From the IMG/VR virus record IMGVR_UViG_2914923772_000011, positions 1 to 64,000 of that record: DNA of 64,000 bases. One strand, 5' to 3'. Under the pieces are notes generated by a model. It was not told where the DNA came from. It worked only from the letters and a program-made list of their open reading frames with translations, and made no database searches. This DNA comes from a virus (lineage: Duplodnaviria; Caudoviricetes). Made by a program: the position numbers and the translations under genes. Shown piece by piece: positions 16,311-42,036 of this stretch. Position 1 is the stretch's first letter, and each line of letters starts with the position of its first letter.

Positions 16311-16513
16311 TGAAGATTGTAGATATTGCAGTAAAAAAAGTCTATCGTTTCAACTGCCCGAATTGCCAGAGTAGGCTTGAGGCCGACAGCAGTGAGCTGA
16401 CAGACATCGGAGGCAAAGTAAGCAAGTTTTATTGCCCCGTATGCCGTAAAGACCGATATATAACTTGGTCTGACTTACGGAAAAAGATCGTCTACGAGGG
16501 TTCGCAGGAATAA
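16310..16513 (+). CDS. Small zinc-ribbon protein
   Basis: CPNC...CPVC. Confidence 0.7.
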   Translation: MKIVDIAVKKVYRFNCPNCQSRLEADSSELTDIGGKVSKFYCPVCRKDRYITWSDLRKKIVYEGSQE

Positions 16514-16530
16514 CAAGCTCCTTTATGAAA
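16503..16530 (+). promoter_or_regulatory. Phage motif copy 1 (putative phage-RNAP promoter)
   Basis: CGC AGGAATAACA AGCTCCT TTATG AAA. Confidence 0.6.
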
Positions 16531-16543
16531 GGAGTGATATTTC

Positions 16544-16771
16544 ATGGAAAAAGAAAACAAAGTTTTAACCTATGCAACAGCATTTGCTGTAGTATCAGGA
16601 GGCATCTTGATGTTGTCTATTGTACCTGCTGCACTCGGCATTAGACAAACGCAAAAAGCGCAGGCGTTTAATCTGATGGCAGATGGATATAGAGCAATGT
16701 CACTTGCTAAAACTTACGATGCAAAAGCAGCAGCGGAAGCGTTAAAACTGACAATTAAAGAAGTGATGTAA
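16544..16771 (+). CDS. Small membrane protein
   Basis: 75 aa with one hydrophobic segment; GAAAGGAG RBS. Confidence 0.7.
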   Translation: MEKENKVLTYATAFAVVSGGILMLSIVPAALGIRQTQKAQAFNLMADGYRAMSLAKTYDAKAAAEALKLTIKEVM

Positions 16772-16786
16772 CTGCTGAAGGATATT

Positions 16787-16805
16787 GAGCCGCTAACAAC
16801 GGCTC
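16787..16805 (+). terminator. Conserved-loop hairpin terminator
   Basis: GAGCCG-CTAACAA-CGGCTC followed by T-rich tract. Confidence 0.7.
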
Positions 16806-16930
16806 TTTATCTTTTCTTTTTCTAACTTAGATTAAAACCCGGACGAAGGTGACAGGTATCTGTGTTAAATTAGTATCTGGAAAAATCCCCGGGTTGAAAT
16901 TTTTGAAAAACAATTTGAAAGGAGATCGTT

Positions 16931-17146
16931 ATGGAAGTCGTTTATGTAGTTGTCGGAATCTTGATTGGGTATGTCGTCTCATCTATCATTCGCCGAAAGC
17001 ATCCTGTCGGTTTTCTGCGTATTGACAAGTCTGATCCGGACGGACCCTATCTTTTTCTTGAACTGAAAAAGAACGTTAATGAAATTATAGCTCAAAGAAC
17101 TGTCCTATTAGAAGTGAAGCGTGAAGACTTTATTCCGCACAAATAA
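16931..17146 (+). CDS. Small protein with N-terminal membrane anchor
   Basis: 71 aa, MEVVYVVVGILIGYVVSSII; strong RBS. Confidence 0.7.
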   Translation: MEVVYVVVGILIGYVVSSIIRRKHPVGFLRIDKSDPDGPYLFLELKKNVNEIIAQRTVLLEVKREDFIPHK

Positions 17147-17163
17147 CACTTCCTTTTATGGAA
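17136..17163 (+). promoter_or_regulatory. Phage motif copy 2
   Basis: CGC ACAAATAACA CTTCCTT TTATG GAA. Confidence 0.6.
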
Positions 17164-17191
17164 CCCTATTAAAACGAAAGGAGAAACGAAT

Positions 17192-17584
17192 ATGGGTGAA
17201 GAAAACAGAAGTTTGTTGGAAGAGGAGATCAAAGCCGAAATTAAGCGCTTGGGATCTCTCGAATCCGGAAGTCAGGAGCATACCACAGCAGTGGATAGTT
17301 TGACGAAGCTGTACAAACTGAAGCTCGAAGAGGATAAGAATGCCTATGAGCGTCTGGACAAGATCGAGAACCGTGAAATCGATCAGGAGTCTAAGACGGC
17401 TCAAATGGCAGAGTCTGTCAAAGATCGATACTTCAGATTTGGTATGGCTGCCGCTGAGCTGGTGCTGCCGTTGATGTTCTACGGCGTTTGGATGAGACGA
17501 GGTTTCAAGTTCGAACAGGACGGAACTTTCACCTCCCAGACATTCAGAGGTTTATTCAGTCGATTCAGACCGACTAAGAAATAA
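17192..17584 (+). CDS. Coiled-coil protein with C-terminal hydrophobic segment
   Basis: 130 aa; GAAAGGAGAAA RBS. Confidence 0.75.
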   Translation: MGEENRSLLEEEIKAEIKRLGSLESGSQEHTTAVDSLTKLYKLKLEEDKNAYERLDKIENREIDQESKTAQMAESVKDRYFRFGMAAAELVLPLMFYGVWMRRGFKFEQDGTFTSQTFRGLFSRFRPTKK

Positions 17585-17598
17585 ACCGGTTCCAAAAG

Positions 17599-17631
17599 CG
17601 GAGAGTTCGTGTATACAACACGTTCTCTTCG
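17599..17631 (+). terminator. Hairpin terminator (loop TATACAA)
   Basis: Imperfect 13-bp stem then TTTTT. Confidence 0.5.
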
Positions 17632-17642
17632 TTTTTCTCCTG

Positions 17643-17670
17643 CTCGAAATTTACAAGGGCTATTGTGAGA
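17643..17670 (+). promoter_or_regulatory. Phage motif copy 3 (variant)
   Basis: CTC GAAATTTACA AGGGCTA TTGTG AGA. Confidence 0.5.
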
Positions 17671-17693
17671 GATGTAAAAGTGCTTTTTATCTC

Positions 17694-17738
17694 TTGATAA
17701 AATACTGATGGCCGCTATACTTAATAGTGCCACACAAT
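17694..17738 (+). promoter_or_regulatory. SigmaA-like promoter with GCCACACAAT downstream element
   Basis: TTGATA (17694), 16 nt, TATACT (17716), GCCACACAAT at 17729. Confidence 0.5.
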
Positions 17739-17757
17739 ATCAAGGAGGTAATTTGCA

Positions 17758-17973
17758 ATGAGCTTTTTTAACGACGCGCAGAGAGACGGTTTACTTACTG
17801 GACGGTATATTTGCAGTGAATGCGGAGGACTTATGGAATTTGAAGACGAGTGGGAAGATACTTTAGTATGTCCTGCTTGCGGTCACTCCGTCGATTTAGA
17901 GCATTATGGTATGGAGAACGATGAAGAATATGATGCTCTATATCCGACCAGAGATCAAATCTGCGACGACTAA
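17758..17973 (+). CDS. Small acidic zinc-ribbon protein
   Basis: CSEC...CPAC; AAGGAGG RBS. Confidence 0.75.
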   Translation: MSFFNDAQRDGLLTGRYICSECGGLMEFEDEWEDTLVCPACGHSVDLEHYGMENDEEYDALYPTRDQICDD

Positions 17974-17997
17974 TTAAGACTATTAGCAAAGGGGAAG

Positions 17998-18015
17998 GAG
18001 TCCTGACGAGGGCTC
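17998..18015 (+). terminator. Conserved-loop hairpin terminator
   Basis: GAGTCC-TGACGA-GGGCTC then T-rich tract. Confidence 0.65.
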
Positions 18016-18044
18016 TTTCTCTTTTCTTTTTATAGGTGATTGAT

Positions 18045-18404
18045 ATGCGATACCACTTTGACAAACCGGAAATTTACTTGTCCTTGTATGGCGAGCGTTA
18101 TATTTGCGAGCATCCGGTTTACAATAGCTGCACTCTCTACAGAATTGAGAAAAGAGGTTTAGCAGTAATTCAGCAACGATTTGACTCCGAGACGAAAAGT
18201 ACATGGTGGAGCGAAGTTGACCCTTGGATTACTGACGCTTTATATTTGCACCCTGATTTTCGAGAATACTTTGAAATGAGGGCTGGGGTGTGTACGGACG
18301 GAATATACCCTACTGTAACGGTTCGCCAAATTATGTGGGCATTAAAAATGAAACCAATTCAGAAAGAACGATGGGAAACCGTATTCGATAGACGGGATAT
18401 CTAA
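18045..18404 (+). CDS. Hypothetical phage protein
   Basis: ~119 aa, AGGTGA RBS. Confidence 0.7.
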   Translation: MRYHFDKPEIYLSLYGERYICEHPVYNSCTLYRIEKRGLAVIQQRFDSETKSTWWSEVDPWITDALYLHPDFREYFEMRAGVCTDGIYPTVTVRQIMWALKMKPIQKERWETVFDRRDI

Positions 18405-18405
18405 G

Positions 18406-18433
18406 CGCAAAAAACGCATCTCCCTTTATGAAA
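18406..18433 (+). promoter_or_regulatory. Phage motif copy 4
   Basis: CGC AAAAAACGCA TCTCCCT TTATG AAA. Confidence 0.55.
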
Positions 18434-18463
18434 ACCATTGAATTTTGAAGGGAGACATGGATT

Positions 18464-18613
18464 ATGAAAACACTAAAGAACAAGCTATATGCTGTAGTAT
18501 TACTTATTTGTGGGTACTTACCGGTACTTATTGACAAAGATGCAACAGCGTTAGTATTCTTTGCGTTTATCGCAATACCGTTGTTCTTTGCAAAAGAAAA
18601 CTGGATTTATTGA
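18464..18613 (+). CDS. 49-aa two-TM membrane protein (not in ORF track)
   Basis: MKTLKNKLYAVVLLICGYLPVLIDKDATALVFFAFIAIPLFFAKENWIY; AGGGAG RBS; lies between motif and terminator. Confidence 0.65.
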   Translation: MKTLKNKLYAVVLLICGYLPVLIDKDATALVFFAFIAIPLFFAKENWIY

Positions 18614-18618
18614 GGATT

Positions 18619-18637
18619 GAGCCGCTAACAACGGCTC
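18619..18637 (+). terminator. Conserved-loop hairpin terminator
   Basis: GAGCCG-CTAACAA-CGGCTC, identical to 16787. Confidence 0.7.
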
Positions 18638-18646
18638 TTTTCTTTT

Positions 18647-18674
18647 CGCCAAAATTACAGCTCCTGTTATGGAA
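18647..18674 (+). promoter_or_regulatory. Phage motif copy 5
   Basis: CGC CAAAATTACA GCTCCTG TTATG GAA. Confidence 0.6.
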
Positions 18675-18705
18675 AACGATGCTATTTGAAAGGAGTAAAA
18701 GGAGC

Positions 18706-18921
18706 ATGGACGAAATGAAAATTGGTTCTAAATTCACTACGAGCATTATCTCGAAATTGGCGAGTTTGGCAATCCGAAAGAAATTTGGTTATGATGTAAA
18801 ACTGAATTTGAATGAGGTAAAAGCCACAGTCGTTGACGGAAAGACGCATGTTCATCTGGATATAGATGCCGATCTTGAGAAAGATGAACTTACTAAAATC
18901 CTGAAAAGTATTGGTTTGTAA
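18706..18921 (+). CDS. Hypothetical phage protein (71 aa)
   Basis: AAAGGAG RBS before ATG 18706. Confidence 0.7.
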   Translation: MDEMKIGSKFTTSIISKLASLAIRKKFGYDVKLNLNEVKATVVDGKTHVHLDIDADLEKDELTKILKSIGL

Positions 18922-18931
18922 AATCTGAAAG

Positions 18932-18950
18932 GAGCTGCTAACAACGGCTC
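18932..18950 (+). terminator. Conserved-loop hairpin terminator
   Basis: GAGCTG-CTAACAA-CGGCTC then TTTTCTTTT. Confidence 0.7.
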
Positions 18951-18963
18951 TTTTCTTTTGCCG

Positions 18964-18991
18964 CGCGAAATTTACAAGTCTTATTATGAGA
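18964..18991 (+). promoter_or_regulatory. Phage motif copy 6
   Basis: CGC GAAATTTACA AGTCTTA TTATG AGA. Confidence 0.6.
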
Positions 18992-19063
18992 GACGGGTTA
19001 GCTCAGTTGGTAGAGCGCCACACTTCCGTGGAGGTCGTCGGTTCGAATCCGATACAGTCTCTC
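18988..19063 (+). ncRNA. tRNA-like RNA with aberrant anticodon and acceptor arms
   Basis: Canonical D arm (TAGCTCAGTTGGTAGAGC) and T arm (GTCGG-TTCGAAT-CCGAT). Anticodon arm is only CCAC-ACTTCC-GTGG. Closing stem GAGAGAC/GTCTCTC; no CCA. Confidence 0.7.
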
Positions 19064-19097
19064 TTGCTTTTTATTTTCGCATGAAAGGAGAAAAGAC

Positions 19098-19418
19098 ATG
19101 AGCATCGATCAGCTTGATCTAATCTTGTATGACATGTACCGCATGGACGCTTGGCTGCCGCCTTTGTTTGGTAAATGGACGGAAGATTATAAAAAAGCGA
19201 GTTACTCACAATGGGCTGTCGACGAGCTCAGAGATTTTATCGCCGAACGGATTTACCCTCGAAAAGAAGGGTCTATTGATGAATTCTGTAAGCTCACGCA
19301 CGAATTCATGATGAAGACAGCTAAGTATGCGAGGGTGAATCCAAACACAAGTCTTATGTTCCGATCTGCCAGTGAAATGGCAGCGAACATTTTAGACCTT
19401 CTAAGGGCTATGGAATAA
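19098..19418 (+). CDS. Hypothetical phage protein
   Basis: 106 aa; GAAAGGAGAAAAGAC RBS. Confidence 0.75.
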   Translation: MSIDQLDLILYDMYRMDAWLPPLFGKWTEDYKKASYSQWAVDELRDFIAERIYPRKEGSIDEFCKLTHEFMMKTAKYARVNPNTSLMFRSASEMAANILDLLRAME

Positions 19419-19442
19419 CAAAAGCATGAAAGGAGAAAAGAC

Positions 19443-20267
19443 ATGAACAAAAACCAAGCAATTCAAAAGTTGCTGCATAAGTCAGGGCTTTGTATCAGGA
19501 AATACTCACCTGTTGCATTGTCTTGTGTAGCATCAGCCGGCGTGGTAGTCACGGCAATTGCAGCAGCCAAAGCGACCCCACGAGCAGTAGCGTTAGTTTA
19601 TGCAGACAGTCGCAAAAAGCATGATGGCGATCCATATGCGTACACCAAGAAAGAGGCGTTCATCGCTGCATGGAAATGTTATATTCCGGCAGTGGCATTT
19701 GGAGCTTCTACTATCGCTTGCATTATGGGTGCCAATGCCTTAAATCGACGCCAACAGGCAGCACTAACAAGTGCGTATGCTCTCGTCCAAAGTTCTTATA
19801 AGGAATATAAGGACAAGCTGAAAGAACTCTATGGAGAAGAAGCACATAATGCAATCATGGATTCCATCATCAAGGAAAAGTGCAAGGACATCAGCATCTC
19901 TGCTAATGGAGGTTGGTACGATTCTTCTCTTGACTTTGGCGAAGGCATGGAGCCTGAGGTTACTCGTACTTTCTACGATAGTTTTTCACAAAGATATTTT
20001 GTGTCAACAATCGAGAAAGTTATCCAGGCTGAGTACCATCTGAACCGCAATTTTATGTTCGCAGGGGTTATCCCACTTAATGACTTTTACGAGTTTCTTG
20101 GGCTTGAAAAGACGGAACTCGGAGATGCCGTAGGATGGTCAAGCTGTAATGGCGATATTTATTGGATCGACTTTAACCATCACCGACTCACTTTGGATGA
20201 CGGCATGGAGATATATGTTATTGACATGGTTTTTGAGCCTACAGCTGAGTGGATGGAAGATCTGTAA
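19443..20267 (+). CDS. DUF6353-like membrane-anchored protein, paralog 1
   Basis: KYSPVAL...TAIAAAKATP hydrophobic segment; C-terminal FYDSFSQRYF...LNDFYEFLGL...GW. Confidence 0.75.
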   Translation: MNKNQAIQKLLHKSGLCIRKYSPVALSCVASAGVVVTAIAAAKATPRAVALVYADSRKKHDGDPYAYTKKEAFIAAWKCYIPAVAFGASTIACIMGANALNRRQQAALTSAYALVQSSYKEYKDKLKELYGEEAHNAIMDSIIKEKCKDISISANGGWYDSSLDFGEGMEPEVTRTFYDSFSQRYFVSTIEKVIQAEYHLNRNFMFAGVIPLNDFYEFLGLEKTELGDAVGWSSCNGDIYWIDFNHHRLTLDDGMEIYVIDMVFEPTAEWMEDL

Positions 20268-20270
20268 GTT

Positions 20271-20298
20271 CGCAAAAAATACATTTCACTTTATGAAA
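20271..20298 (+). promoter_or_regulatory. Phage motif copy 7
   Basis: CGC AAAAAATACA TTTCACT TTATG AAA. Confidence 0.6.
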
Positions 20299-20319
20299 AC
20301 GAAAAGGAGGTTTCGCTTT

Positions 20320-20490
20320 ATGAATAATGCAAAATTGGTTAAAATCCTGGGTCTTGTCGCTACCGCAGTAGGTATGGGGGCTACGCTCCTCACTGACTGG
20401 GTGAACGAGAAGAAGATGGAAGAAAAAATTGATGAACGCATCAATGAGAAGCTTGCCGCACTTAGCGATGAAGAAGATGAGGAGTCCTAA
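20320..20490 (+). CDS. 56-aa membrane-anchored protein
   Basis: MNNAKLVKILGLVATAVGMGATLL...; AAGGAGG RBS. Confidence 0.7.
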   Translation: MNNAKLVKILGLVATAVGMGATLLTDWVNEKKMEEKIDERINEKLAALSDEEDEES

Positions 20491-20499
20491 CAAGGGCTC
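20482..20499 (+). terminator. Conserved-loop hairpin terminator (stop codon lies in loop)
   Basis: GAGTCC-TAACAA-GGGCTC then T-rich tract. Confidence 0.65.
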
Positions 20500-20510
20500 T
20501 TCTTCTTTAT

Positions 20511-20816
20511 TTGAACGATATGTGTGATGCAAGCACGGCTGTTTCGATCATCCAACGATATGTTGGTGAGCATCTGTTCAGCCCATCCTTCACATGGCCA
20601 AAGTATGAATTCAGAAAAAGGTCATATCAGCAATGGGCTGCATATGAAATCTGTGATCGAATCATGGACAAGCCTTTCGACGATCCAATCACCATCATCG
20701 AAAACTTCATGTTCGAGATGGCTATGTATGCTTGTTACGGCGAGGATGAGCAGCGTAGCTTTATATTTCAGAATGCGGTCGAAACAGCTGAAGAATTAAG
20801 TCTACTATTTGTTTAA
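20511..20816 (+). CDS. Hypothetical phage protein
   Basis: ~100-aa ORF filling the gap; weak RBS, start uncertain. Confidence 0.55.
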   Translation: MNDMCDASTAVSIIQRYVGEHLFSPSFTWPKYEFRKRSYQQWAAYEICDRIMDKPFDDPITIIENFMFEMAMYACYGEDEQRSFIFQNAVETAEELSLLFV

Positions 20817-20832
20817 CCGAAAGGAGAAAATC

Positions 20833-21594
20833 ATGCCTAAACAAAGTTTAGCAAGCATTGCCAAAGGTGTACGGACGGCAATGAAAAAACATAGTCCTGA
20901 AATTCTCACCGGTATCGGAATTGCCGGCATGATTACCACCACTGTTATGGCGGTAAAAGCAACCCCAAAAGCTCTGATTCTGCTTGAAGAGAAAAAAGAT
21001 GAGTTGGATACGGACAGACTTGAGCCGAAGGACATCATCAAGACAGCTTGGCCTTGTTATATTCCGGCGGCTGTCGTAGGCTCCATCTCTGTATTCTGCC
21101 TGATTGGGGCAAGCTCGACTAATCTTCGTCGAAATGCTGCGCTGGCAACGGCATATACCCTTTCGGAGTCGACTCTCAAAGAGTATCAGGAAAAAGTCGT
21201 TGAGACAATCGGTGAGAAAAAGGAACAGTCCATTCGAGACTCTGTGTCGAAAGACAAGATGGTTAAGAACCCTGTTCGAGAAATTATTCTCACCGAAAGC
21301 GGCGGGAACACAATCTGTTACGATGTCTTATCCGGACGATATTTCAAGTCTGACAGAGATAAGATTACCAGAGTCATGAATGAACTGAATCGGCAGATGC
21401 GTGACGAAATGTATGTCACACTAAACGATTTCTACTATGAACTCGGTTTAGACGGAACCAAGATGGGCGATATGCTCGGATGGAACATTGATAAGGGTTA
21501 CATTGACCTTGCTTTCTCGTCCCAGCTGGATGCAAATGGCACCCCTTGCCTGGTGATCGACTATCAGGTAGCACCAGTTTACGACTATCAGTAA
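20833..21594 (+). CDS. DUF6353-like protein, paralog 2
   Basis: KKHSPEILTGIGIAGMITTTVMAVKATPK; CYDVLSGRYFKS...LNDFYYELGL...GW. Confidence 0.8.
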   Translation: MPKQSLASIAKGVRTAMKKHSPEILTGIGIAGMITTTVMAVKATPKALILLEEKKDELDTDRLEPKDIIKTAWPCYIPAAVVGSISVFCLIGASSTNLRRNAALATAYTLSESTLKEYQEKVVETIGEKKEQSIRDSVSKDKMVKNPVREIILTESGGNTICYDVLSGRYFKSDRDKITRVMNELNRQMRDEMYVTLNDFYYELGLDGTKMGDMLGWNIDKGYIDLAFSSQLDANGTPCLVIDYQVAPVYDYQ

Positions 21595-21602: not shown

Positions 21603-21630
21603 CGCGAAATTTACAACTTATTTAATGGAA
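21603..21630 (+). promoter_or_regulatory. Phage motif copy 8
   Basis: CGC GAAATTTACA ACTTATT TAATG GAA. Confidence 0.55.
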
Positions 21631-21926: not shown

Positions 21927-21952
21927 AAATGCGAATTTGAGAAGTTCGGATA

Positions 21953-21984
21953 AGGGAGAGTACCTGTAACAAGGTGCTTTCCCT
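21953..21984 (+). terminator. Conserved-loop hairpin terminator
   Basis: AGGGAGAGTACC-TGTAACAA-GGTGCTTTCCCT then TTTT. Confidence 0.65.
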
Positions 21985-22015
21985 TTTTCTTTATCTCTCG
22001 AAAGGAGAAAAAAAT

Positions 22016-22220: not shown

Positions 22221-22826
22221 GTGGAAGATTACAAGTCTAATTCTGATAAAGCTCGTCAGGAGCAGCAGTCAGAAAAGAAAGTTGAGGCGGTTATTACCGG
22301 GGCTGCAAAAACTCGAAAAAAAGGTGAGATGCAAAAATTTGCAGATGTATTTATTGCCGAGGATGCAAACAATGTCAAATCTTATATTTTGATGGAGGTC
22401 ATTGTGCCTGCTGTCAAGAAAGCGATTTCTGACATTGTCACTACCGGTATCGATATGATCCTGTACGGCGAGGCAGGTCGAAGCAAGAAAAACGGAACGG
22501 CGTCTAAGGTGTCTTACCGAAACTATTATGAACGGGACGCGGACAGAGTGCGTGCAGGTTCCGTTGGCAACAGACGCAATACACCTGATTATGATGATAT
22601 TCTCTTCGATACCCGTGGAGATGCGGAAGCGGTTCTCGATGCAATGAACGATATCATCAGTCAGTATGGAACGGTGAGCGTGTCCGATTTCTATGATCTC
22701 GCTCGTGTTCCCAATGATAATTTCACTATGAACCGCTACGGTTGGACAAACATTGGCGGTGCAACTGCGGTACGAGTTCGAGATGGTTATATTCTGAAAC
22801 TGCCTCGTGCTATCCCGCTGAATTGA
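22221..22826 (+). CDS. Hypothetical phage protein
   Basis: 201 aa, GTG start; C-terminus VSVSDFYDL...YGW resembles the DUF6353 paralog C-termini. Confidence 0.75.
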   Translation: MEDYKSNSDKARQEQQSEKKVEAVITGAAKTRKKGEMQKFADVFIAEDANNVKSYILMEVIVPAVKKAISDIVTTGIDMILYGEAGRSKKNGTASKVSYRNYYERDADRVRAGSVGNRRNTPDYDDILFDTRGDAEAVLDAMNDIISQYGTVSVSDFYDLARVPNDNFTMNRYGWTNIGGATAVRVRDGYILKLPRAIPLN

Positions 22827-23353: not shown

Positions 23354-24271
23354 ATGAAAAATAAGACTGAAATCATGAAGAGCGTGAGCGGTGTGGCTTC
23401 CAAGACCGTTATGAAGCTCAAGAAACACAGCCCCGAGATTCTCGTTGTGGCTGGTATTGCCGGTACGGTCGTAAGTGCCGTTCTCGCTTGCAAGGCCACC
23501 ACTAAGGTAGCAGAGATTCTCGATGAAACTAAGGGTACTCTCGACACCATTCATGAAGGTGTGGAAACCGGTGCAATCAACGGTCAGGAGTATACGACTG
23601 AGGACGGCAAGAAGGACACGGTTGTTGTCTATGCCCAGACCGGAATGAAGCTCGCAAAGCTTTATGCTCCTGCTATTATTCTCGGCACTCTGTCCATCAC
23701 CAGCATTCTGGCATCCAACAATATTCTTCGCAAGCGCAATGTAGCTCTTGGCGCTGCCTATGCCGCTATTGATAAGAGCTTCAAGGAATATCGCGGTCGT
23801 GTCATCGAGCGCTTCGGAGAGCAGGTCGATACCGAACTGAAGTATGGCATCAAGGCGAAGAAGTTCGAGGAAATCGAGGTTGATCCCGAGACCGGCAAGG
23901 AGAAGAAGGTTAAAAAGACTGTGATGGTCGCTGATCCTAATCTCCAGAGCGATTACGCTGTATATTTCGACAGCAAGAGCCGCAACTATGAGACTAACCC
24001 CGATTACAACCGCATGTTCCTCAAGGCACAGCAGGCATTTGCAAATGACAAGCTTCAGACCCGTGGTCACCTCTTCCTGAATGAGGTTCTGGACGATCTG
24101 GATCTTCCTCGTACCCCTGCTGGTCAGATTGTCGGTTGGACAAAGGATGGTCCGGATGGCTATGTTAATTTCCGCATCGTTGAGGTAGAGCGCGAGACCG
24201 AAGACGGTCGTCATGAGCCGGCACTTCTGCTCGACTTCAATGTTGAGGGCAACATCTGGGAAAAGATGTAA
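23354..24271 (+). CDS. DUF6353-like protein, paralog 3
   Basis: KKHSPEILVVAGIAGTVVSAVLACKATTK; LFLNEVLDDL...GW. Confidence 0.8.
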   Translation: MKNKTEIMKSVSGVASKTVMKLKKHSPEILVVAGIAGTVVSAVLACKATTKVAEILDETKGTLDTIHEGVETGAINGQEYTTEDGKKDTVVVYAQTGMKLAKLYAPAIILGTLSITSILASNNILRKRNVALGAAYAAIDKSFKEYRGRVIERFGEQVDTELKYGIKAKKFEEIEVDPETGKEKKVKKTVMVADPNLQSDYAVYFDSKSRNYETNPDYNRMFLKAQQAFANDKLQTRGHLFLNEVLDDLDLPRTPAGQIVGWTKDGPDGYVNFRIVEVERETEDGRHEPALLLDFNVEGNIWEKM

Positions 24272-26792: not shown

Positions 26793-29700
26793 ATGATCGA
26801 CTTTTTAATGATTTCGACCCGTAGTACGAAGCGTGGTGTAATAGAAATCTATCCGAAGTTCATCATTAAGAAAAGCTCCGACCTGATGATTAGAGGCGGT
26901 GACTTCTATGCCATTTGGTTAGAAGACCGAGGTTTATGGTCTACGGATGAGCAAGATGCGCTCCAGCTTATTGACCGGGAACTTGACAAGTATGCAGAGG
27001 AAAACCGCAAAAACTTTGATTCGAGTATTAAAGTTCTGCACATGTGGGATTCCGAATCTGGAATGATCGATTCATGGCATAAATACTGTCAAAAGCAGAT
27101 GCGAGACTCTTTCCACATGCTTGATGAGAAACTTATATTCTCCAATACACCGACGAACAAAAAAGACTACGCAAGTAAGCGGCTGAACTATCCTCTTGAA
27201 GAAGGGGCCACGGATGCATGGAATAAGCTGATGTCCACAATTTACTCTAAAGAAGAGCGAACGAAAATTGAATGGGCTATTGGTTCTATTGTCTGTGGAG
27301 AGTCGAAGAAATTGCAGAAATTTATGGTTCTGTACGGTGCAGCAGGTACGGGTAAGTCTACGGTTCTGAACATTGTTCAGCAGCTCTTTGAAGGATATTA
27401 TTCTGTCTTCGATGCGAAAGCACTGGGTTCGTCCAGTAATTCCTTTGCATTAGAGGCATTCAAGACGAATCCACTTGTGGCAATTCAGCATGACGGTGAC
27501 TTATCTCGCATCGAGGACAACACCCGACTGAACAGTTTGGTTTCTCACGAGCTGATGACAGTAAATGAAAAGTTCAAATCGACCTACGCAAACCGCTTCA
27601 AGTGCTTCCTGTTCATGGGCACCAATAAACCGGTCAAGATTACGGACGCAAAGTCAGGTCTTATCAGACGATTGATCGATGTGTCCCCTTCCGGAAACAA
27701 ATTGAGTCCCAAGGAATACAAGGCGGTGACAAAGCAAATCGAATTTGAACTCGGTGCAATTGCTTATCATTGCCAGGAAGTCTATCTGGAGAATCCGGGC
27801 AGATACGATGATTATATTCCCGTGACGATGCTCGGTGCATCTAATGATTTCTATAACTTCATTATTGATTCTTACCATGTCTTCAAGAAAGAAGACGGGA
27901 CAACTCTCAAAGCCTCATGGGAGATGTATAAAACCTATTGCGATGAGGCAAAAGTTACCTTCCCGTTCTCTCAGAGGATATTTAAGGAGGAACTGAAAAA
28001 CTACTTCCGGGATTACAAGGAGAGATTCAATCTTGATGACGGAACTCGTGTGCGAAGCTATTACATTGGCTTTCGAACCGAAAAATTCGAGGATAAGGCA
28101 CTTACCGAGCAAGACGAGCCTGAGCATAAACTGATCGAATTCTTAAAACAGAAATCGGTCTTCGATAGAGAATGCGCAGATTGTCCTGCTCAGTATGCTT
28201 CGGCTAAAGAGACACCAACTTCCAAATGGGATGAAGTTTCAACTAAGCTAAGCAACTTGACGACATCAAGATTGCATTATGTGAAAGTCCCGGAGAACCA
28301 CATTGTTATCGACTTTGATATTCAGGATAAGGACGGCAATAAGTCGTATGAACTGAATCTCAAAGAAGCGAGTAAATGGCCGCCGACCTATGCTGAACTC
28401 AGCAAAAGCGGTCAGGGCATCCACCTTCATTATATTTATGCTGGTGATGTCAGCAAGCTCAGCCGAGTGTATGACGATCATATTGAAGTGAAGGTCTTCA
28501 CCGGTAAAAGCTCGCTGCGCAGAAAGCTGACAAAGTGTAATGATCTGCCTATCGCAACGATCAACTCGGGTTTACCACTGAAAGGAGAAAAACAAGTGAT
28601 AAATTTTGAAGGAGTGAAGAGCGAGAAAGGGCTTAGAACGCAAATCAAGCGAAATCTGAACAAGGAGTACCATCCGGCAACAAAGCCCAGTATCGACTTC
28701 ATTTACAAGATTCTTGAGGATGCTTATGCAAGCGGACTCAATTATGACGTGACTGATATGCGCAATGCTGTCTTGGCATTTGCAGCGAGCAGCACACATC
28801 AGGCGGATTACTGTATCAAGTTAGTCAACAAGATGCAGTTTAAGTCCGCAGACCAGTCAGCAGGAGCAAAAAATGATGATGCCAAGCTCGTGTTCTATGA
28901 TGTTGAGGTATTTCCGAACCTGTTCTTGGTGAACTGGAAAATCGAGGGCGAGGGTAAGCCGGTGGTTCGTATGATTAACCCTACCCCGACTGAGATTGAA
29001 GAGCTGATGCGATTCCGTCTGGTTGGCTTCAACTGCCGTCGATACGACAACCATATTCTCTATGCTCGGCTGATGGGGTATACGAACGAACAGCTTTATA
29101 ATCTCTCGACAAAGATCATCAACGGCAGCGCAAATTGCTTCTTTGGCGAAGCCTATAATGTGTCGTATACGGATGTGTATGACTTTTCCAGTAAGAAGCA
29201 GTCCCTTAAGAAGTTCGAGATTGAACTGGGTATTCACCATCAGGAACTTGGTCTGCCTTGGGACAAGCCTGTGCCGGAGGAGCTTTGGACTAAGGTTGCT
29301 GAGTATTGCGACAACGATGTCATTGCGACAGAAGCAACCTTTAATGCTCGTAAGGCGGACTTCACGGCTCGTCAGATTCTGGCAGATGTGGCGGGGATGT
29401 CCGTCAATGATACAACGAACTCGCTGACTACCAGAATTATATTTGGTAACAACCGCAAGCCTCAGGATCAGTTCAATTACCGTTTCATGGGTGACGAGAG
29501 TCAAATCTTCGACCCTAATGCGGATCTTCCGTTTACAATGGGGCTTGAAGACTACGACGAGTTCACACAGTTCGATAAAAACCATCGTCCCATCTTTCCT
29601 GGCTACACATTCGAGGGCGGCAAGTCTGTCTACAGAGGTGAAGAAGTCGGTGAGGGCGGCTATGTATATTCTGAACCCGGTATGTACAGTAACATTGCTC

Positions 29701-30949: not shown

Positions 30950-31075
30950 ATGATTTTAATTCTGTTAATTGCTGTGTTCATTTATATTTTGTGCACGGCT
31001 GATTCTACCGAGTCCTGTATTCCCAATGAGGAGTGCAGGACTTGCCCATTTCCATGCGACAAACGCAAAAATTGA
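30950..31075 (+). CDS. 41-aa membrane/Cys-rich peptide (not in ORF track)
   Basis: MILILLIAVFIYILC...CRTCPFPC; GAGGT RBS. Confidence 0.5.
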   Translation: MILILLIAVFIYILCTADSTESCIPNEECRTCPFPCDKRKN

Positions 31076-36726: not shown

Positions 36727-36754
36727 CACGAAAAAAACACCCCCTATTATGAAA
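36727..36754 (+). promoter_or_regulatory. Phage motif copy 9
   Basis: CAC GAAAAAAACA CCCCCTA TTATG AAA. Confidence 0.55.
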
Positions 36755-36960: not shown

Positions 36961-36977
36961 GTTACTCGATTTCGAAG

Positions 36978-37005
36978 GTAAAGGGGCCGTAACAAGCCCT
37001 TTTAC
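36978..37005 (+). terminator. Conserved-loop hairpin terminator
   Basis: GTAAAGGGGC-CGTAACAA-GCCCTTTTAC then TTTT. Confidence 0.65.
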
Positions 37006-37047
37006 TTTTGTTATATTTGTGGTAACATACTGTAAGGAGGTCATCAA

Positions 37048-37363: not shown

Positions 37364-37373
37364 CATTTTATGT

Positions 37374-37400
37374 AAGAGCTGAGGTTAAACCTTGGCTCTT
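37374..37400 (+). terminator. Hairpin terminator
   Basis: AAGAGCTGAGG-TTAAA-CCTTGGCTCTT then ATTTTTT. Confidence 0.6.
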
Positions 37401-37424
37401 ATTTTTTGTGTAAAGGAGAAAACA

Positions 37425-37625: not shown

Positions 37626-37899
37626 CCGGCTTCTGCTCAATGGCTTAATGGGTCTGAACGGAGAAGCCGGCGAAGCAATTGATATTTTGAAAAAGCATCT
37701 GTTTCAGGGGCACGAACTGGACACTGCACATATGGCTAAAGAGCTTGGAGATGTGGCTTGGTATCTCGCTGTAAGTGCAAACGCCATTGGGTATGACCTT
37801 GAAACCATCATGCAGATGAATGTGGATAAACTGAAAGCCAGGTATCCAGACGGTTTCGACGCTGAACACAGTCTGCATCGCGATCAGGATGATATTTAA
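37564..37899 (+). CDS. MazG-like nucleotide pyrophosphohydrolase
   Basis: GLNGEAGE..D..KK...ELGDVAWY...N..KL..RYP. Confidence 0.85.
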   Translation: MTPNDYQQAALRTAPKDLPPDRLLLNGLMGLNGEAGEAIDILKKHLFQGHELDTAHMAKELGDVAWYLAVSANAIGYDLETIMQMNVDKLKARYPDGFDAEHSLHRDQDDI

Positions 37900-37911
37900 G
37901 GAGGGTTTTCT

Positions 37912-39822: not shown

Positions 39823-40285
39823 ACCGGAATCCATTGTTGACGGGGAAGGAATCCGGTATGTGATATTCGCACAGGGTTGTCCGCATCATTGCCCCGGCTG
39901 CCACAATCCTCAAACTCACCCGTTCGGTGGGGGAAAACTCGTGTCGATCGAAGATATACTCGATGATATTTCAAAAAGAAAAAATTGGATAGACGGCATC
40001 ACCATTTCCGGAGGCGAGCCGTTCTGTCAGATTTACCAGTGTGCTCTGATCGCTGAAAAAGCTCATCAAATGGGGCTCAGCGTTTGGTGCTACACTGGTT
40101 ATCTTTTTGAAGACTTGTACAAGCAAGGCATCGAGCTTCTTAAACATATTGATGTACTCGTTGACGGCCCGTTCGTACAGGCTGAAAAATCGTTGGAGCT
40201 TGATTTCAGAGGAAGCCGTAACCAGCGAGTAATTGATATCCCGGAAAGCTTGAAAGAAGGCGTAGCAATCTTGAAACAAACTTAG
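39794..40285 (+). CDS. nrdG: Class III RNR activating protein (radical SAM)
   Basis: SIVDGEGIR, CPHHCPGCHN, SGGEPF, VLVDGPF, FRGSRNQR. Confidence 0.93.
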   Translation: MKLIRISGIEPESIVDGEGIRYVIFAQGCPHHCPGCHNPQTHPFGGGKLVSIEDILDDISKRKNWIDGITISGGEPFCQIYQCALIAEKAHQMGLSVWCYTGYLFEDLYKQGIELLKHIDVLVDGPFVQAEKSLELDFRGSRNQRVIDIPESLKEGVAILKQT

Positions 40286-40305
40286 AAGAAAGGAGTACCT
40301 GCATC

Positions 40306-40512
40306 ATGGCGAACACTACTAATCCTCGACGAAATGCCGAAGGATATTCTGACCCGACCGCTTACGAAGCCCTTAAGAACATTGAGCGTGAAGAAGACGA
40401 AAGATTTCATAGGCTGCTGCATACACTGTTTTACTTGTGTGAATTGGCTGACTTCGAGATCGAAGGTCGGATTATTCTGGTTGATAAACGGAACGGACGG
40501 GTTTGGAGATAA
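40306..40512 (+). CDS. Hypothetical phage protein
   Basis: 68 aa, RRNAEGYSDPTAYEAL; GAAAGGAG RBS. Confidence 0.7.
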   Translation: MANTTNPRRNAEGYSDPTAYEALKNIEREEDERFHRLLHTLFYLCELADFEIEGRIILVDKRNGRVWR

Positions 40513-40577
40513 GAGAAATGAGTCCGTATATACTTGAAAATTGTGTGAATTTTAGCCCGGTTTTGTTTGGCGGATTC

Positions 40578-40866
40578 GGGCAAAAGCCCACTTTTGAAAA
40601 ATTTTTGAGCGTGTACGGACAATTTTCTTGAAAAAAGCCCAGAAAAAGTGGGCAAAAGCCCGGTTTTGAAAACCAAAAGTGGGCAGAAAAATTCGGAGGC
40701 ATTTTCTGAAAATGGCACTTTTTAGGCGTTTTTTGCCCCAAAATGGCCGATTTGCGCCGATTTGAAATTTTTTTTGTGAAAAAAAGCCCACTTTCCCACT
40801 TTTATTTCTTATTTAATTGCGATAAAAAGTTTTAATAAATATATAAATAGGGCGAGAAAAGTGGGC
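40578..40866. repeat. Iteron-like repeat cluster with AT-rich core (candidate replication origin)
   Basis: AAAGTGGGC at 40645, 40676, 40858 and its complement GCCCACTTT at 40586, 40786; the last two inverted copies flank an AT-rich stretch. Confidence 0.6.
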
Positions 40867-40950
40867 ATTTGGCCAAAAGCCAAAATACATAGCACAAGTC
40901 GATGGAAATGTCAAGACTTTTTGCCGAAAGTTCTTCCTTTTTCTTTCAAG

Positions 40951-40977
40951 CTGTGCTATACTATAAGAGCCACACAA
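40951..40977 (+). promoter_or_regulatory. Extended -10 sigmaA-type promoter with GCCACACAAT element
   Basis: TGTG-C-TATACT (40951-40961), GCCACACAAT at 40968. Confidence 0.55.
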
Positions 40978-41081
40978 TCTAATATGTTCAAGTCGTTTAG
41001 GGAAAACTGCTTTGGTAAAAAGTGTTTTCTCTCTTTACTCATTTCATTTGTCCCTTTGCGGCTTGATTGAGATTGTGTGGC
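40968..41081 (+). ncRNA. Structured leader or sRNA upstream of lipoprotein gene
   Basis: GCCACACAATCT/AGATTGTGTGGC 12-bp closing stem; inner TCAAGTCG/CGGCTTGA and AGGGAAAAC/GTTTTCTCT stems. Confidence 0.45.
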
Positions 41082-41167
41082 AACAATGAGGGTTGACACT
41101 TTTTCGGTGCGTCTCTCGTTGTGGGGGCGCACTTTTTTAATGCCCTCGGAAAGGATGGGATAATGAG

Positions 41168-41938
41168 ATGAGAAAGTTCTTGGCAGCGTGCATGGCGATT
41201 GTCATGATATTTACGATTGCAGGTTGCAGTTCAGAGGGGCATGAAGGAGAAGCTAAAACTCCATCGGGTTCCAGTATTCAAAAAGGCAAGGATTATCAAA
41301 AAGTAGTTGACGAATTTGAAAGTAGTGGTTTCACAAACATCAAACTTGAAAAACTTGACGACCTTGTTACTGGTTGGCTTACAAAAGACGGTGAGGTTGA
41401 ATCTGTTTCCGTGGATGGCGATACTGGATACTCTGCTGATGCTTGGTATCCGGCTGATGTCGAGGTTATAATCACATATCACACATTCCCGGAAAAAGAA
41501 ACTTCTAAAACAGATAGCGAATCCGTTTCAACCGAAGAGCCTGCCGTTGATATTTTGACAGTAGATAATTCTCCAGAATTGGCAGCAATACTTTCTCTTA
41601 AAGCAGATATGGATCAATCGTATGCCGATTTTGCAGAGGCTCATAAGAACCAGGTTATTGAGTTTAATGGCTGCATTACATATCTTACAAACCACGATAA
41701 CTACGACACTCGATATGATTTGCTAATCAGTGCAGGAGACTATGTGGATGAAAATACTGCAAACCCTGGTCCAACTTTTAAGTTTAAGGATGTTGGGGTA
41801 TATGATTTAGGAGACGGGTTTACGCTTGCTGATTATATCAAAGTCGGCAGCAATGTAAAAATACAGGCTAAAGTGCGGAGCTACAATTCTGATACAGGTC
41901 TCTTTGAACTTGATCCAGTAAGTGTAGAAGCTCGATAA
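41168..41938 (+). CDS. Lipoprotein moron (DUF4839-like)
   Basis: Signal peptide with lipobox IAGC; own promoter and terminator; family label from recall. Confidence 0.75.
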   Translation: MRKFLAACMAIVMIFTIAGCSSEGHEGEAKTPSGSSIQKGKDYQKVVDEFESSGFTNIKLEKLDDLVTGWLTKDGEVESVSVDGDTGYSADAWYPADVEVIITYHTFPEKETSKTDSESVSTEEPAVDILTVDNSPELAAILSLKADMDQSYADFAEAHKNQVIEFNGCITYLTNHDNYDTRYDLLISAGDYVDENTANPGPTFKFKDVGVYDLGDGFTLADYIKVGSNVKIQAKVRSYNSDTGLFELDPVSVEAR

Positions 41939-41955
41939 CAAACAACTTTATATTT

Positions 41956-41984
41956 GACCGAGATGCTTAAACGGTGTCTCGGTC
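41956..41984 (+). terminator. Rho-independent terminator
   Basis: GACCGAGATGC-TTAAACG-GTGTCTCGGTC then T8. Confidence 0.8.
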
Positions 41985-42008
41985 TTTTTTTTATGTCTTT
42001 TTCCGCCG

Positions 42009-42036
42009 CGCGAAAAATACATTCTCTTTTATGAAG
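42009..42036 (+). promoter_or_regulatory. Phage motif copy 10, upstream of the nuclease-RNAP operon
   Basis: CGC GAAAAATACA TTCTCTT TTATG AAG. Confidence 0.6.

What the first reader, a model, noticed from the sequence alone, without database searches (positions are those of the whole stretch)
16503..42036. Ten copies of a fixed-spacing non-sigmaA motif: candidate promoter for the phage RNAP
Seen: consensus CGC-RAAAWWWACA-N7-TTATG-RAA at 16503, 17136, 17643, 18406, 18647, 18964, 20271, 21603, 36727 and 42009. All are on the + strand, at gene junctions, with invariant spacing, and several directly follow a terminator. I saw none in the ICE part or the morphogenesis region. The TTTACA-like and TATGAA-like hexamers are only 8 nt apart, which does not fit sigmaA. 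One copy precedes the operon containing the RNAP itself, implying positive feedback. Inference: cognate promoter of the 906-aa RNAP, or an operator of a phage regulator.
Basis: partly seen in the sequence, partly recalled or inferred. Interest (0 to 1): 0.8.

Follow-up and report, generated by a model that had tools for sequence, protein, structure and literature searches.

The report
Promoter motif of a phage's own polymerase
Ten copies of a 28-base signal in this prophage are almost certainly the promoters read by the phage's own one-chain RNA polymerase; the same signal travels with that polymerase in phages of very different bacteria, so an enzyme family whose promoter recognition is unknown can now be tested directly.

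Summary
All ten sites sit at the stated coordinates, all on the + strand (0.06 expected by chance). They score 24-41 bits against 8.8 for the next best place in the 74-kb record.

The 906-aa ORF is a single-chain two-barrel RNA polymerase of the Lactococcus 1706 / FP_oengus / actinophage family (PHROG 4291). It has an invariant GADFDGD loop, its modelled core matches QDE-1 and the P23-45 gp64 polymerase, and it carries HTH modules at both ends.

The motif recurs in the same register and always on the coding strand in every polymerase-bearing relative I examined: Faecalibacterium, Lactococcus, Streptomyces, Arthrobacter and Gordonia phages, plus 117 IMG/VR loci with 709 sites. Nine of ten large motif-bearing contigs encode the polymerase, and the tenth ends before the gene's expected position. 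A copy lies about 1 kb upstream of the polymerase gene in 9 of 9 loci.

The motif fits neither sigma-A spacing nor an operator's dyad symmetry. The best reading is the polymerase's own promoter, starting at the conserved G (confidence 0.7).

No RNA data exist, so the start site and polymerase dependence are inferred. I found no paper describing this promoter. Earlier AI notes of this scan report the same association on other genomes.

The parts
16503..16530 (+). motif copy 1 (overlaps the end of the upstream ORF); predicted start G at 16527; 17 nt to the ATG of a 75-aa membrane peptide
   Evidence: (30.6 bits)
17136..17163 (+). motif copy 2; predicted start G at 17160; 32 nt to the ATG of a 130-aa ORF
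   Evidence: (27.8 bits)
17643..17670 (+). motif copy 3, degenerate at two near-invariant positions (G2 to T, A23 to G); followed by a small hairpin (17667-17695) and a sigma-A-like site at 17694-17721
   Evidence: (23.9 bits)
18406..18433 (+). motif copy 4; 27 nt to a 25-aa ORF
   Evidence: (33.3 bits)
18647..18674 (+). motif copy 5, 10 nt after terminator 18619-18637
   Evidence: 33.2 bits
18964..18991 (+). motif copy 6, just after terminator 18932-18959; its G at 18988 is the first base of the extended stem of the tRNA-like RNA
   Evidence: (30.2 bits)
18992..19060 (+). tRNA-like gene driven by copy 6; the outer stem GAGAGAC/GUCUCUC (18988-19063) is followed by a U-run
   Evidence: Rfam tRNA 39.6 bits against a gathering score of 29; not called by ARAGORN; fold
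   Evidence: (31.1 bits)
21603..21630 (+). motif copy 8; 45 nt to an 84-aa membrane protein, closed by terminator 21952-21985
   Evidence: (33.0 bits)
36727..36754 (+). motif copy 9; 18 nt to a 63-aa ORF, closed by terminator 36973-37010
   Evidence: (38.4 bits)
41956..41984 (+). strong intrinsic terminator (12-bp stem plus T8) that insulates the polymerase operon from upstream transcription
42009..42036 (+). motif copy 10 (best score), 933 nt upstream of the polymerase start; candidate promoter of the nuclease-polymerase operon and possibly of the whole late module
   Evidence: (40.6 bits)
42113..42409 (+). VRR-NUC-like endonuclease, first gene after copy 10
   Evidence: phrog_93 at 3e-16; same gene order in Moozy and Arcadia
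42243..42938 (+). Cas4/RecB-type exonuclease
   Evidence: phrog_3953 at 6e-84, DUF2800
42942..45662 (+). 906-aa single-chain two-barrel RNA polymerase with two N-terminal HTH modules (about aa 43-125) and one C-terminal sigma-region-4/GerE-like HTH (aa 869-905); proposed reader of the motif
45659..45940 (+). 93-aa conserved hypothetical protein that always follows the polymerase gene (possible accessory factor)
   Evidence: phrog_4303 at 3e-37; listed as conserved across the lineage by Koert et al.

Best explanation
The 28-bp element (consensus CGCGAAAwwwACA-N7-TTATG-RAA) is the promoter of the prophage's own single-chain two-barrel RNA polymerase, encoded at 42942-45662.

Proposed mechanism (inferred):
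- The polymerase's fused HTH modules, two N-terminal and one C-terminal and sigma-region-4-like, dock on the invariant upstream blocks CGC (about -24 to -22) and ACA (about -14 to -12).
- The A/T-rich T-W-A-T stretch just upstream of the start is melted.
- RNA starts at the invariant purine G25, or the next base, and is followed by purines.

Proposed transcription units:
- Short cassettes of promoter, small gene and terminator in the early arm (16.5-22 kb), including one tRNA-like RNA.
- One cassette at 36.7 kb.
- From 42009, the endonuclease-exonuclease-polymerase operon. This is an autocatalytic loop. Because no terminator follows, it probably continues into the packaging and morphogenesis genes.

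Shown here: the sites are real, and they are conserved in position, orientation and register across the whole polymerase-bearing phage lineage. The ORF has the fold and catalytic residues of a two-barrel polymerase.

Inferred: that this polymerase, rather than another factor, reads the motif; the start site; and the role of the HTH modules.
For: (1) Non-random and strictly directional. There are 10 sites against 0.06 expected, all on the + strand. They stand 15 or more bits above background.

(2) The same motif, in the same register (C1, C3, A11-C12-A13, T24, purines at 25-28), recurs on the coding strand in every polymerase-bearing genome examined:
- FP_oengus: about 15 copies.
- Arthrobacter phage Arcadia and Gordonia phage Secretariat: 7-9 copies each.
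- Lactococcus 1706: 10 copies; Streptomyces phage Moozy: about 7.
- One relaxed expression gives 45 sites on the coding strand and 0 on the other strand in 7 genomes from two phyla with G+C of 33-61%.

(3) IMG/VR. At least 117 contigs hold exact matches. Their loci hold 709 sites, never on both strands of one locus, with C1, G2, C3, C12, T21, A23, T24 and G25 more than 96% invariant.

(4) Motif predicts polymerase. Nine of 10 large motif-bearing contigs encode the polymerase. The tenth belongs to the lineage but ends about 9 kb before the expected gene position.

(5) Promoter-like placement. 90% of 696 sites have an SD plus start codon within 60 nt (median 33), against 29% for random positions. 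49% have a T-run just upstream, against 10%.

(6) A copy lies 0.5-1.1 kb upstream of the polymerase gene in 9 of 9 IMG/VR loci. The same holds in FP_oengus, MT835495, Moozy, Arcadia and Secretariat.

(7) The ORF is a two-barrel polymerase with HTH domains above Pfam thresholds (HTH_38, GerE, Sigma70_r4_2).

(8) According to Koert et al. (bioRxiv 10.1101/842583), this is the only HTH-bearing protein among the roughly 11 lineage-wide genes.

(9) Geometry excludes sigma-A. The hexamer-like parts are 5-8 bp apart, and the Firmicute form lacks the final T of a -10 element.

(10) Four transcripts would begin with a stem exactly at G25. One is a tRNA-like RNA whose outer stem starts at that G.
Against: - There is no transcript evidence. 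No RNA run holds this sequence, so neither the start site nor polymerase dependence is shown.
- The polymerase has never been assayed in this family. Only the distant YonO has been tested (PMC5467207).
- Co-occurrence cannot separate the polymerase from other lineage-wide genes. The DNA primase-polymerase has the same phyletic spread, and I found no polymerase-less relatives to use as a negative control.
- In the actinophage variants the downstream block reads TATAAT, a perfect host -10 hexamer. Actinobacterial sigma-A can work with a -10 element alone, so host polymerase use is not excluded there.
- If the polymerase is not carried in the virion, something else must first transcribe its gene. 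In this prophage the only promoter-like element ahead of it is the motif itself.
- Lactococcus 1706 shows no clear copy directly upstream of its polymerase gene.
Confidence: 0.7

Rival explanations
1. The motif is read by the host RNA polymerase, either through an unusual promoter architecture or together with a phage-encoded activator or sigma-like factor. That factor could be the HTH domains of the 906-aa protein acting only as a transcription factor. The two-barrel enzyme would then do something else, for example priming or late transcription only.
For: - The actinophage variants contain a perfect TATAAT, and the upstream part resembles TTTACA.
- The 906-aa protein carries a sigma-region-4/GerE-type HTH.
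- The small zinc-ribbon proteins at 16310 and 17758 show weak similarity to Ogr/Delta-type and TFIIB-type fingers.
- YonO, the only tested relative, transcribes late genes from one start site, not arrays of early cassettes.
Against: - The spacing between the hexamer-like parts is 5-8 bp, not 16-18 bp.
- The Firmicute form (TTATGRAA, invariant G25) lacks the conserved last T of a -10 element.
- The same 28-bp register is kept in hosts from two phyla with 33-61% G+C phage genomes. That points to a phage-borne reader.
- The zinc-ribbon genes are not conserved at this position in FP_oengus.
- Sigma-A-like sites are not enriched in the phage.
Confidence: 0.15
2. The motif is an operator: the binding site of a phage repressor or another DNA-binding regulator, overlapping promoters that are defined by other sequence.
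For: Temperate members need some way to silence these cassettes, and no classical CI-type repressor gene is evident next to the integrase.
Against: - There is no dyad symmetry: 40% self-complementarity in full register, with arms of 5 nt or less.
- All 709 + 45 sites are in one orientation relative to the genes.
- No other conserved promoter element accompanies the motif (logo flanks carry under 0.5 bit).
- The motif is equally present in virulent members such as 1706, Arcadia and Secretariat, which need no lysogeny operator.
Confidence: 0.08
3. The motif acts at the RNA level, as a leader, processing or translation signal. Alternatively it is mainly a recombination boundary that allows cassettes to be exchanged.
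For: The distance to the start codon is short and fixed, exactly 24 nt in most Secretariat copies. The pyrimidine-rich N7 segment can pair with the SD in some copies (hairpin 16517-16535). The cassette arrays look modular.
Against: Half of the copies sit directly after a terminator, so they would rarely be transcribed. The N7 segment varies without any conserved pairing. The strongest conservation (CGC, ACA) lies farthest from the ribosome site. One copy drives a non-coding tRNA-like gene. A role as a recombination boundary could be a by-product of being a promoter.
Confidence: 0.04

Closest known systems
Phage-polymerase-specific promoters of T7-like single-subunit polymerases (about 23 bp, -17 to +6, TATA just before a +1 G)
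   Same: Both are long, highly conserved elements repeated on the coding strand ahead of gene blocks and specific to a phage-encoded polymerase. Both have an A/T-rich stretch immediately before a purine start followed by purines. In both, a promoter lies ahead of the polymerase region.
   Different: The polymerase here has an unrelated fold (two double-psi beta-barrels, not the right-hand Pol I-like fold). The motif has a variable 7-bp centre. Recognition is probably by fused HTH modules, not by a specificity loop and AT-rich recognition loop.
YonO of Bacillus prophage SPbeta (single-chain two-barrel RNA polymerase; Forrest et al. 2017, PMC5467207)
   Same: Both are single-polypeptide two-barrel polymerases of a temperate Firmicute phage. 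[quoted passage not shown] Here, likewise, one site (42009) heads a terminator-free stretch that includes the late genes.
   Different: YonO is only distantly related; it belongs to a different one of the five YonO-like families (PMC2919709). YonO's promoter sequence is unknown, and the paper leaves open whether it needs factors. In this family the motif also heads many early-arm cassettes.
gp64 non-virion and gp96 virion two-barrel polymerases of Thermus phage P23-45 (Chaban et al., bioRxiv 10.1101/2022.12.01.518664)
   Same: These are single-chain two-barrel phage polymerases, each tied to its own conserved DNA motif upstream of gene sets. That paper also used presence or absence of the motif among relatives as evidence. 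gp64 and P74-26 gp62 are structural matches of the model here (E 5e-8).
   Different: There is no detectable sequence similarity, and the motifs differ (GC-rich or AT-rich). The text passages I searched in that paper do not mention helix-turn-helix modules. Start sites were mapped experimentally there, not here.
The HTH-flanked 'RdRP-like' signature protein of the actinophage supercluster (AM, AU, AW, BI, CC, DJ, EL) plus Lactococcus 1706 and FP_oengus (Koert et al., bioRxiv 10.1101/842583); PHROG 4291
   Same: This is the same protein family. The window's protein is 51-57% identical over its full length to these proteins and matches PHROG 4291 end to end.
   Different: That paper predicts polymerase activity and the HTH domains but never mentions a promoter; the word does not occur in it. 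The motif and its lineage-wide conservation are the addition here.
Bacterial sigma-70/sigma-A promoters
   Same: Both are bipartite or tripartite DNA signals read, at least in part, by HTH domains of the sigma-region-4 type, with an A/T-rich element that melts near the start.
   Different: The element spacing does not fit sigma-A, and no separate sigma is needed in the proposed model because the HTH modules are part of the catalytic chain.

Membership tests
Promoter of a phage-encoded RNA polymerase | A conserved sequence of at least 20 bp, repeated on the coding strand just upstream of genes, far above chance | tested here: met
   10 sites against 0.06 expected, all on the + strand; 17-45 nt to the start codon for most; 90% of 696 related sites have an SD plus start within 60 nt
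Promoter of a phage-encoded RNA polymerase | Co-occurs with the polymerase gene across genomes | tested here: met
   Present in all 7 polymerase-bearing genomes examined. Nine of 10 motif-bearing IMG/VR contigs encode the polymerase, and the tenth is truncated before the gene. Limitation: no polymerase-less relatives exist for the converse test.
Promoter of a phage-encoded RNA polymerase | Primary transcripts start at a fixed position of the motif | not testable with these tools
   No RNA runs hold the sequence. The only evidence is indirect: predicted RNA stems begin at G25.
Promoter of a phage-encoded RNA polymerase | Initiation depends on the phage polymerase and is insensitive to inhibitors of the host enzyme | not testable with these tools
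   Needs in vitro transcription or genetics
Sigma-A (sigma-70 type) promoter | -35-like and -10-like hexamers 16-18 bp apart, with the -10 ending in T | tested here: not met
   Hexamer-like parts are 8 bp apart (Firmicute form) or 5 bp apart (actinophage form). Position 27 is A or G in 695 of 707 sites.
Operator of a dimeric HTH regulator | Dyad symmetry; function independent of orientation | tested here: not met
   40% self-complementarity in register, arms of 5 nt or less; all sites in one orientation
Two-barrel (double-psi beta-barrel) RNA polymerase, YonO-like '1706' family (applies to the ORF at 42942-45662) | DxDGD metal loop, plus the upstream R-x-P and conserved Lys/Asp residues of the first barrel | tested here: met
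   S515-GADFDGD-522, R471, P473, K292, D306, K313 and K324 are invariant in 72 homologues at 47-62% identity
Two-barrel (double-psi beta-barrel) RNA polymerase, YonO-like '1706' family (applies to the ORF at 42942-45662) | Fold similarity to solved single-chain two-barrel polymerases | tested here: met
   Model of aa 201-720 (pLDDT 87.8, pTM 0.82). Foldseek matches: QDE-1 4e-11, P74-26 gp62 / P23-45 gp64 5e-8, RDR2 5e-8, gp96 5e-4, then bacterial beta-prime. Sequence profiles alone find only the HTH parts.
Two-barrel (double-psi beta-barrel) RNA polymerase, YonO-like '1706' family (applies to the ORF at 42942-45662) | DNA-dependent RNA synthesis | not testable with these tools
   Shown only for the distant YonO (PMC5467207); no assay of this family was found

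The most novel reading that the evidence does not exclude
This family is a self-contained transcription machine. A single chain of about 900 aa unites a minimal two-barrel catalytic core with three HTH modules that do the job of sigma, and it recognises a tripartite promoter of about 28 bp with no host or phage cofactor. It may be carried in the capsid, because its invariant N-terminal HYG...SGRYPWGSG segment resembles the N-termini of two head-module proteins. Injected enzyme could then fire the early cassettes and afterwards amplify itself from its own promoter. That would make it the simplest known promoter-specific relative of cellular RNA polymerases, spread with one promoter code across Actinobacteria and Firmicutes.
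Probability: 0.4. Interest if true: 0.85.

Novelty: new variant of a known kind. Interest (0 to 1): 0.72.

Why it matters
How single-chain two-barrel polymerases of the YonO type find promoters was left explicitly open when YonO was characterised (PMC5467207). For the 1706 / FP_oengus / actinophage family, even enzymatic activity is untested.

A 28-bp consensus with eight near-invariant positions gives an immediate, cheap experiment: purified protein plus an oligonucleotide template. The consensus is shared by more than a thousand protein clusters' worth of phages, including easily grown Lactococcus, Arthrobacter, Gordonia and Streptomyces phages.

If the fused HTH modules do the reading, this is a natural 'core plus sigma in one chain' enzyme. 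That bears on the evolution of transcription initiation, and the enzyme could serve as a compact orthogonal expression system for Gram-positive bacteria.

The motif also improves annotation. It marks transcription units in hundreds of deposited phage genomes and in abundant gut prophages.

Tried and rejected
- RNA evidence: no RNA holder is listed for window:16400-22100. I therefore did not use read laying, because contigs cannot show transcript starts.
- Negative control with polymerase-less relatives: not possible. The DNA primase-polymerase has the same distribution as the RNA polymerase in the phage collection.
- The apparent counterexample G006 (motif present, no polymerase) is a contig that ends about 2 kb past the helicase gene, before the polymerase position.
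- Sequence searches of the polymerase against Pfam, NCBIfam and PDB sequences find only the HTH parts. The fold had to be shown from a model. The first full-length AlphaFold job failed, so only the core (aa 201-720) was modelled, and the HTH modules were not folded.
- Literature: searches by motif strings, by cluster names and by phage names found no description of this promoter. Garneau et al. 2008 on phage 1706 is not held, so I cannot exclude that it lists these repeats.
- The original pattern missed 1706 and Moozy at up to 4 mismatches. De novo k-mer counting found their variants.
- The ESM Atlas gave only a weak lead to RdRP-family clusters (score 0.87).
- A capsid-targeting role for the polymerase N-terminus rests only on a sub-threshold DUF7211 match (E 0.06). 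I treat it as a lead, not a finding.
- I did not compare the motif with the SPbeta YonO start-site region.

Full report
OBSERVATION

All are on the + strand, against 0.06 expected from shuffles. I built a weight matrix from these sites and from those of FP_oengus and ran it over the whole 74,053-base record. The window covers bases 1-64000 of this IMG/VR virus record. The ten sites score 24-41 bits. The next best position (18066, +) scores 8.8, and nothing on the - strand reaches 8.

Every copy is followed within 17-110 nt by a ribosome site and start codon, or by a tRNA-like gene. Four copies (17643, 18647, 18964, 42009) sit within about 25 nt of a hairpin plus T-run. The small genes they head are mostly closed by terminators at 17988, 20479, 21952 and 36973. 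The early arm is therefore an array of motif, small gene and terminator cassettes. The copy at 17643 departs from two near-invariant positions and is followed by a sigma-A-like TTGATA-16-TATACT, so it may be decaying.

THE POLYMERASE

The ORF at 42942-45662 matches PHROG 4291 ('RNA-dependent RNA polymerase') end to end and contains GADFDGD at residues 516-522. In 72 homologues of 47-62% identity, S515-G-A-D-F-D-G-D522, R471-x-P473 and several Lys/Asp residues of an upstream barrel are invariant. So is an N-terminal H10-Y-G ... S17-G-R-Y-P-W-G-S-G25 segment.

Sequence searches against Pfam, NCBIfam and PDB see only the helix-turn-helix parts. HTH_38, GerE and Sigma70_r4_2 pass their thresholds at residues 869-905. 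Two weaker HTH units lie at about residues 43-125.

An AlphaFold model of residues 201-720 is confident (pLDDT 87.8, pTM 0.82). Foldseek matches it over about 500 columns to the following:
- the Neurospora RNAi polymerase QDE-1 (E 4e-11);
- P74-26 gp62 and P23-45 gp64 (5e-8);
- plant RDR2;
- P23-45 gp96 (5e-4);
- bacterial beta-prime, more weakly.

The family is large: 1008 clusters at 50% identity with E of 1e-30 or better. In print it is one of five 'YonO-like' families (Ruprich-Robert and Thuriaux 2010, PMC2919709). It is also the HTH-flanked signature protein of an actinophage supercluster plus Lactococcus 1706 and FP_oengus (Koert et al., bioRxiv 10.1101/842583). That paper predicts polymerase activity, but the word 'promoter' does not occur in it.

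THE MOTIF TRAVELS WITH THE POLYMERASE

In the phage collection, 251 records encode a full-length homologue at about 51% identity. They include Arthrobacter, Gordonia, Streptomyces, Lactococcus and Faecalibacterium phages. I examined seven genomes.
- FP_oengus carries about 15 copies of CGCGAAAAAwnCA-N7-TTTATGGAA. All are on the coding strand: in the arm next to the integrase, at 22540, and at 27684 ahead of the nuclease-polymerase operon.
- Arcadia and Secretariat carry 7-9 copies each of CGCrnnAwTTACA-N5-CTATAATGAGA.
- Lactococcus 1706 has ten copies of C(G/A)CAwGTTTTACA-N5-C-TATAGTAGAA, and Streptomyces phage Moozy has about seven of CGCACGTTTTACA-N5-TTATAATGAGA. The original pattern missed these, and k-mer counting found them.

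All variants share one register: C1, C3, A11-C12-A13, T24 and purines at 25-28. A single relaxed expression finds 45 sites on coding strands and none on the other strand.

In IMG/VR, the stringent Firmicute-type pattern hits at least 117 contigs. Their loci (1.07 Mb) hold 709 sites at 16 bits or more. No locus has sites on both strands, and C1, G2, C3, C12, T21, A23, T24 and G25 are more than 96% invariant. Of 696 of these sites, 90% have an SD plus start codon within 60 nt (median 33), against 29% at random positions. 49% have a T-run within 20 nt upstream, against 10%.

Nine of ten large motif-bearing contigs encode the polymerase at 54-78% identity. The tenth belongs to the lineage (primase-polymerase 70% identical, nine motif copies on one strand). 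However, it ends about 2 kb beyond the helicase gene, roughly 9 kb short of where the polymerase lies in the window. It is not a counterexample.

In 9 of 9 IMG/VR loci that contain the polymerase start, a site lies 0.5-1.1 kb upstream. In the window the distance is 933 nt. The same arrangement holds in FP_oengus, MT835495, Moozy, Arcadia and Secretariat.

WHAT IT IS NOT

The TTTACA-like and TATGAA/TATAAT-like parts are 8 bp apart in the Firmicute form and 5 bp apart in the actinophage form, not 16-18 bp. In the Firmicute form the last position of the would-be -10 element is a purine in 695 of 707 sites. The motif is therefore not a sigma-A promoter.

It has no dyad symmetry and is strictly oriented, which argues against a repressor operator. 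It also occurs in virulent members. Half of the copies follow terminators, and the best-conserved bases are the farthest from the ribosome site. Both points argue against an RNA-level signal.

A 28-bp signal kept in register across two phyla, in phage genomes of 33-61% G+C, needs a reader that travels with the phage. Among the roughly eleven lineage-wide genes listed by Koert et al., the polymerase-like protein is the only one with sequence-specific DNA-binding domains.

MECHANISM PROPOSED

Inferred: the three HTH modules dock on the CGC and ACA blocks. The T-W-A-T stretch melts, and RNA starts at G25 or the next purine.

Indirect support for the start site is that predicted stems begin exactly at that G in four copies. 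One belongs to the tRNA-like RNA at 18992-19060. Rfam scores it as tRNA at 39.6 bits against a gathering score of 29, while ARAGORN does not call it. Its outer stem GAGAGAC/GUCUCUC starts at 18988 and is followed by a U-run.

From 42037 to 62000, neither + strand terminators nor sigma-A-like sites exceed shuffle levels, whereas a strong terminator precedes 42009. The 42009 copy therefore probably drives the endonuclease-exonuclease-polymerase operon and runs on into the packaging and head-tail genes. This combines positive feedback with late transcription. It recalls YonO, which transcribes the SPbeta late genes as one operon from one start.

What first transcribes the polymerase gene is open. 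Possibilities are read-through, a weak host promoter, or enzyme delivered in the virion. The virion idea rests only on a sub-threshold resemblance of the invariant N-terminus to the DUF7211 N-termini of two head-module proteins.

LIMITS

- There is no RNA evidence, no biochemical test of this family in the literature held here, and no polymerase-less relatives for a converse control.
- In actinophages, the TATAAT block leaves room for some use by host polymerase.
- The 2008 paper on phage 1706 is not held.

PRIOR NOTES OF THIS SCAN

Several earlier follow-ups on other genomes report the same polymerase family travelling with a promoter-like motif of about 30 bases across host phyla. First-stage notes on this record cover the polymerase, the tRNA mimic, the stems at G25 and possible virion packaging. 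They agree with what I found independently, but they are not independent evidence.

VERDICT

- Observation: confirmed.
- Interpretation as the cognate promoter of the phage polymerase: supported by comparative evidence, confidence 0.7.
- Kind: phage-polymerase-specific promoter, which is already known. The variant is new: a two-barrel single-chain enzyme with fused HTH readers and a cross-phylum promoter code. I found no published description of it.

Noticed in passing
window 18988-19075: A tRNA-like gene (Rfam tRNA 39.6 bits; ARAGORN silent). It has good D and T arms and a short anticodon arm with a 6-nt loop. A 7-bp outer stem starts at the motif's G and is followed by a U-run, so it forms its own promoter-RNA-terminator cassette. 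Lactococcus 1706 also has a tRNA-like start (GGATATAGCTCAG) about 22 nt after its copy at 31069.
   Followed up: partly
window 42942-43020, 47894-47960, 50065-50130: The polymerase N-terminus (L-x-H-Y-G ... SGRYPWGSG) is invariant in 72 homologues. It resembles the DUF7211 N-termini (L-x-H-H-G-I-x-G-x-K-W-G-V-R-R) of two small proteins that flank the terminase and portal genes. The Pfam match of the polymerase segment is only E 0.06. This is a possible capsid-targeting or protease-processing signal, which would mean the polymerase is packaged.
   Followed up: partly
window 17643-17760: The weakest motif copy has substitutions at two near-invariant positions. It is followed by a small hairpin starting at its G and then by a sigma-A-like TTGATA-16-TATACT (17694-17721) ahead of a zinc-ribbon gene (17758-17973). 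The cassette may have switched to host transcription.
   Followed up: no
window 42037-62000: There are no + strand intrinsic terminators or sigma-A-like sites above shuffle level across the polymerase, tRNA-Leu (46347-46434), HNH, terminase, portal, protease-capsid and tail genes. It looks like a single very long transcription unit.
   Followed up: partly
L005:2640-3050 (Lactococcus 1706, record 51640-52050) and L008:32896-33200 (Gordonia phage Secretariat): The non-coding stretch near the polymerase gene holds other direct repeats. In 1706, CTATCACGAAAAAACTTCGGGAAAACTTCGGGATT occurs about three times. In Secretariat, AATCTTGACGAATCTGA-like units repeat. They could be iterons, or an origin or packaging site. 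They are unrelated to the promoter motif.
   Followed up: no
L008 (Gordonia phage Secretariat) 10527-17661: In most copies the distance from the motif's G to the start codon is exactly 24 nt, with a conserved leader GAGACCCCTAyGAAAGGAAc. In that phage the promoter and leader move as one unit.
   Followed up: no
window 19443-20267, 20809-21594, 23354-24271: Three paralogues of phrog_2152 (261-305 aa, unknown function) sit within 5 kb of the early arm. The same family is duplicated in FP_oengus.
   Followed up: no
window 18066-18093: A degenerate motif-like sequence (CCGGAAATTTACTTGTCCTTGTATGGCG, 8.8 bits) lies inside the early arm. It is possibly a dead copy.
   Followed up: no
window 16310-16513 and 17758-17973: Two small zinc-ribbon proteins lie in the early arm. 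They show weak similarity to Ogr/Delta-type and TFIIB-type fingers (E about 0.004-0.02). They are candidate accessory transcription factors but are not conserved at this position in FP_oengus.
   Followed up: partly
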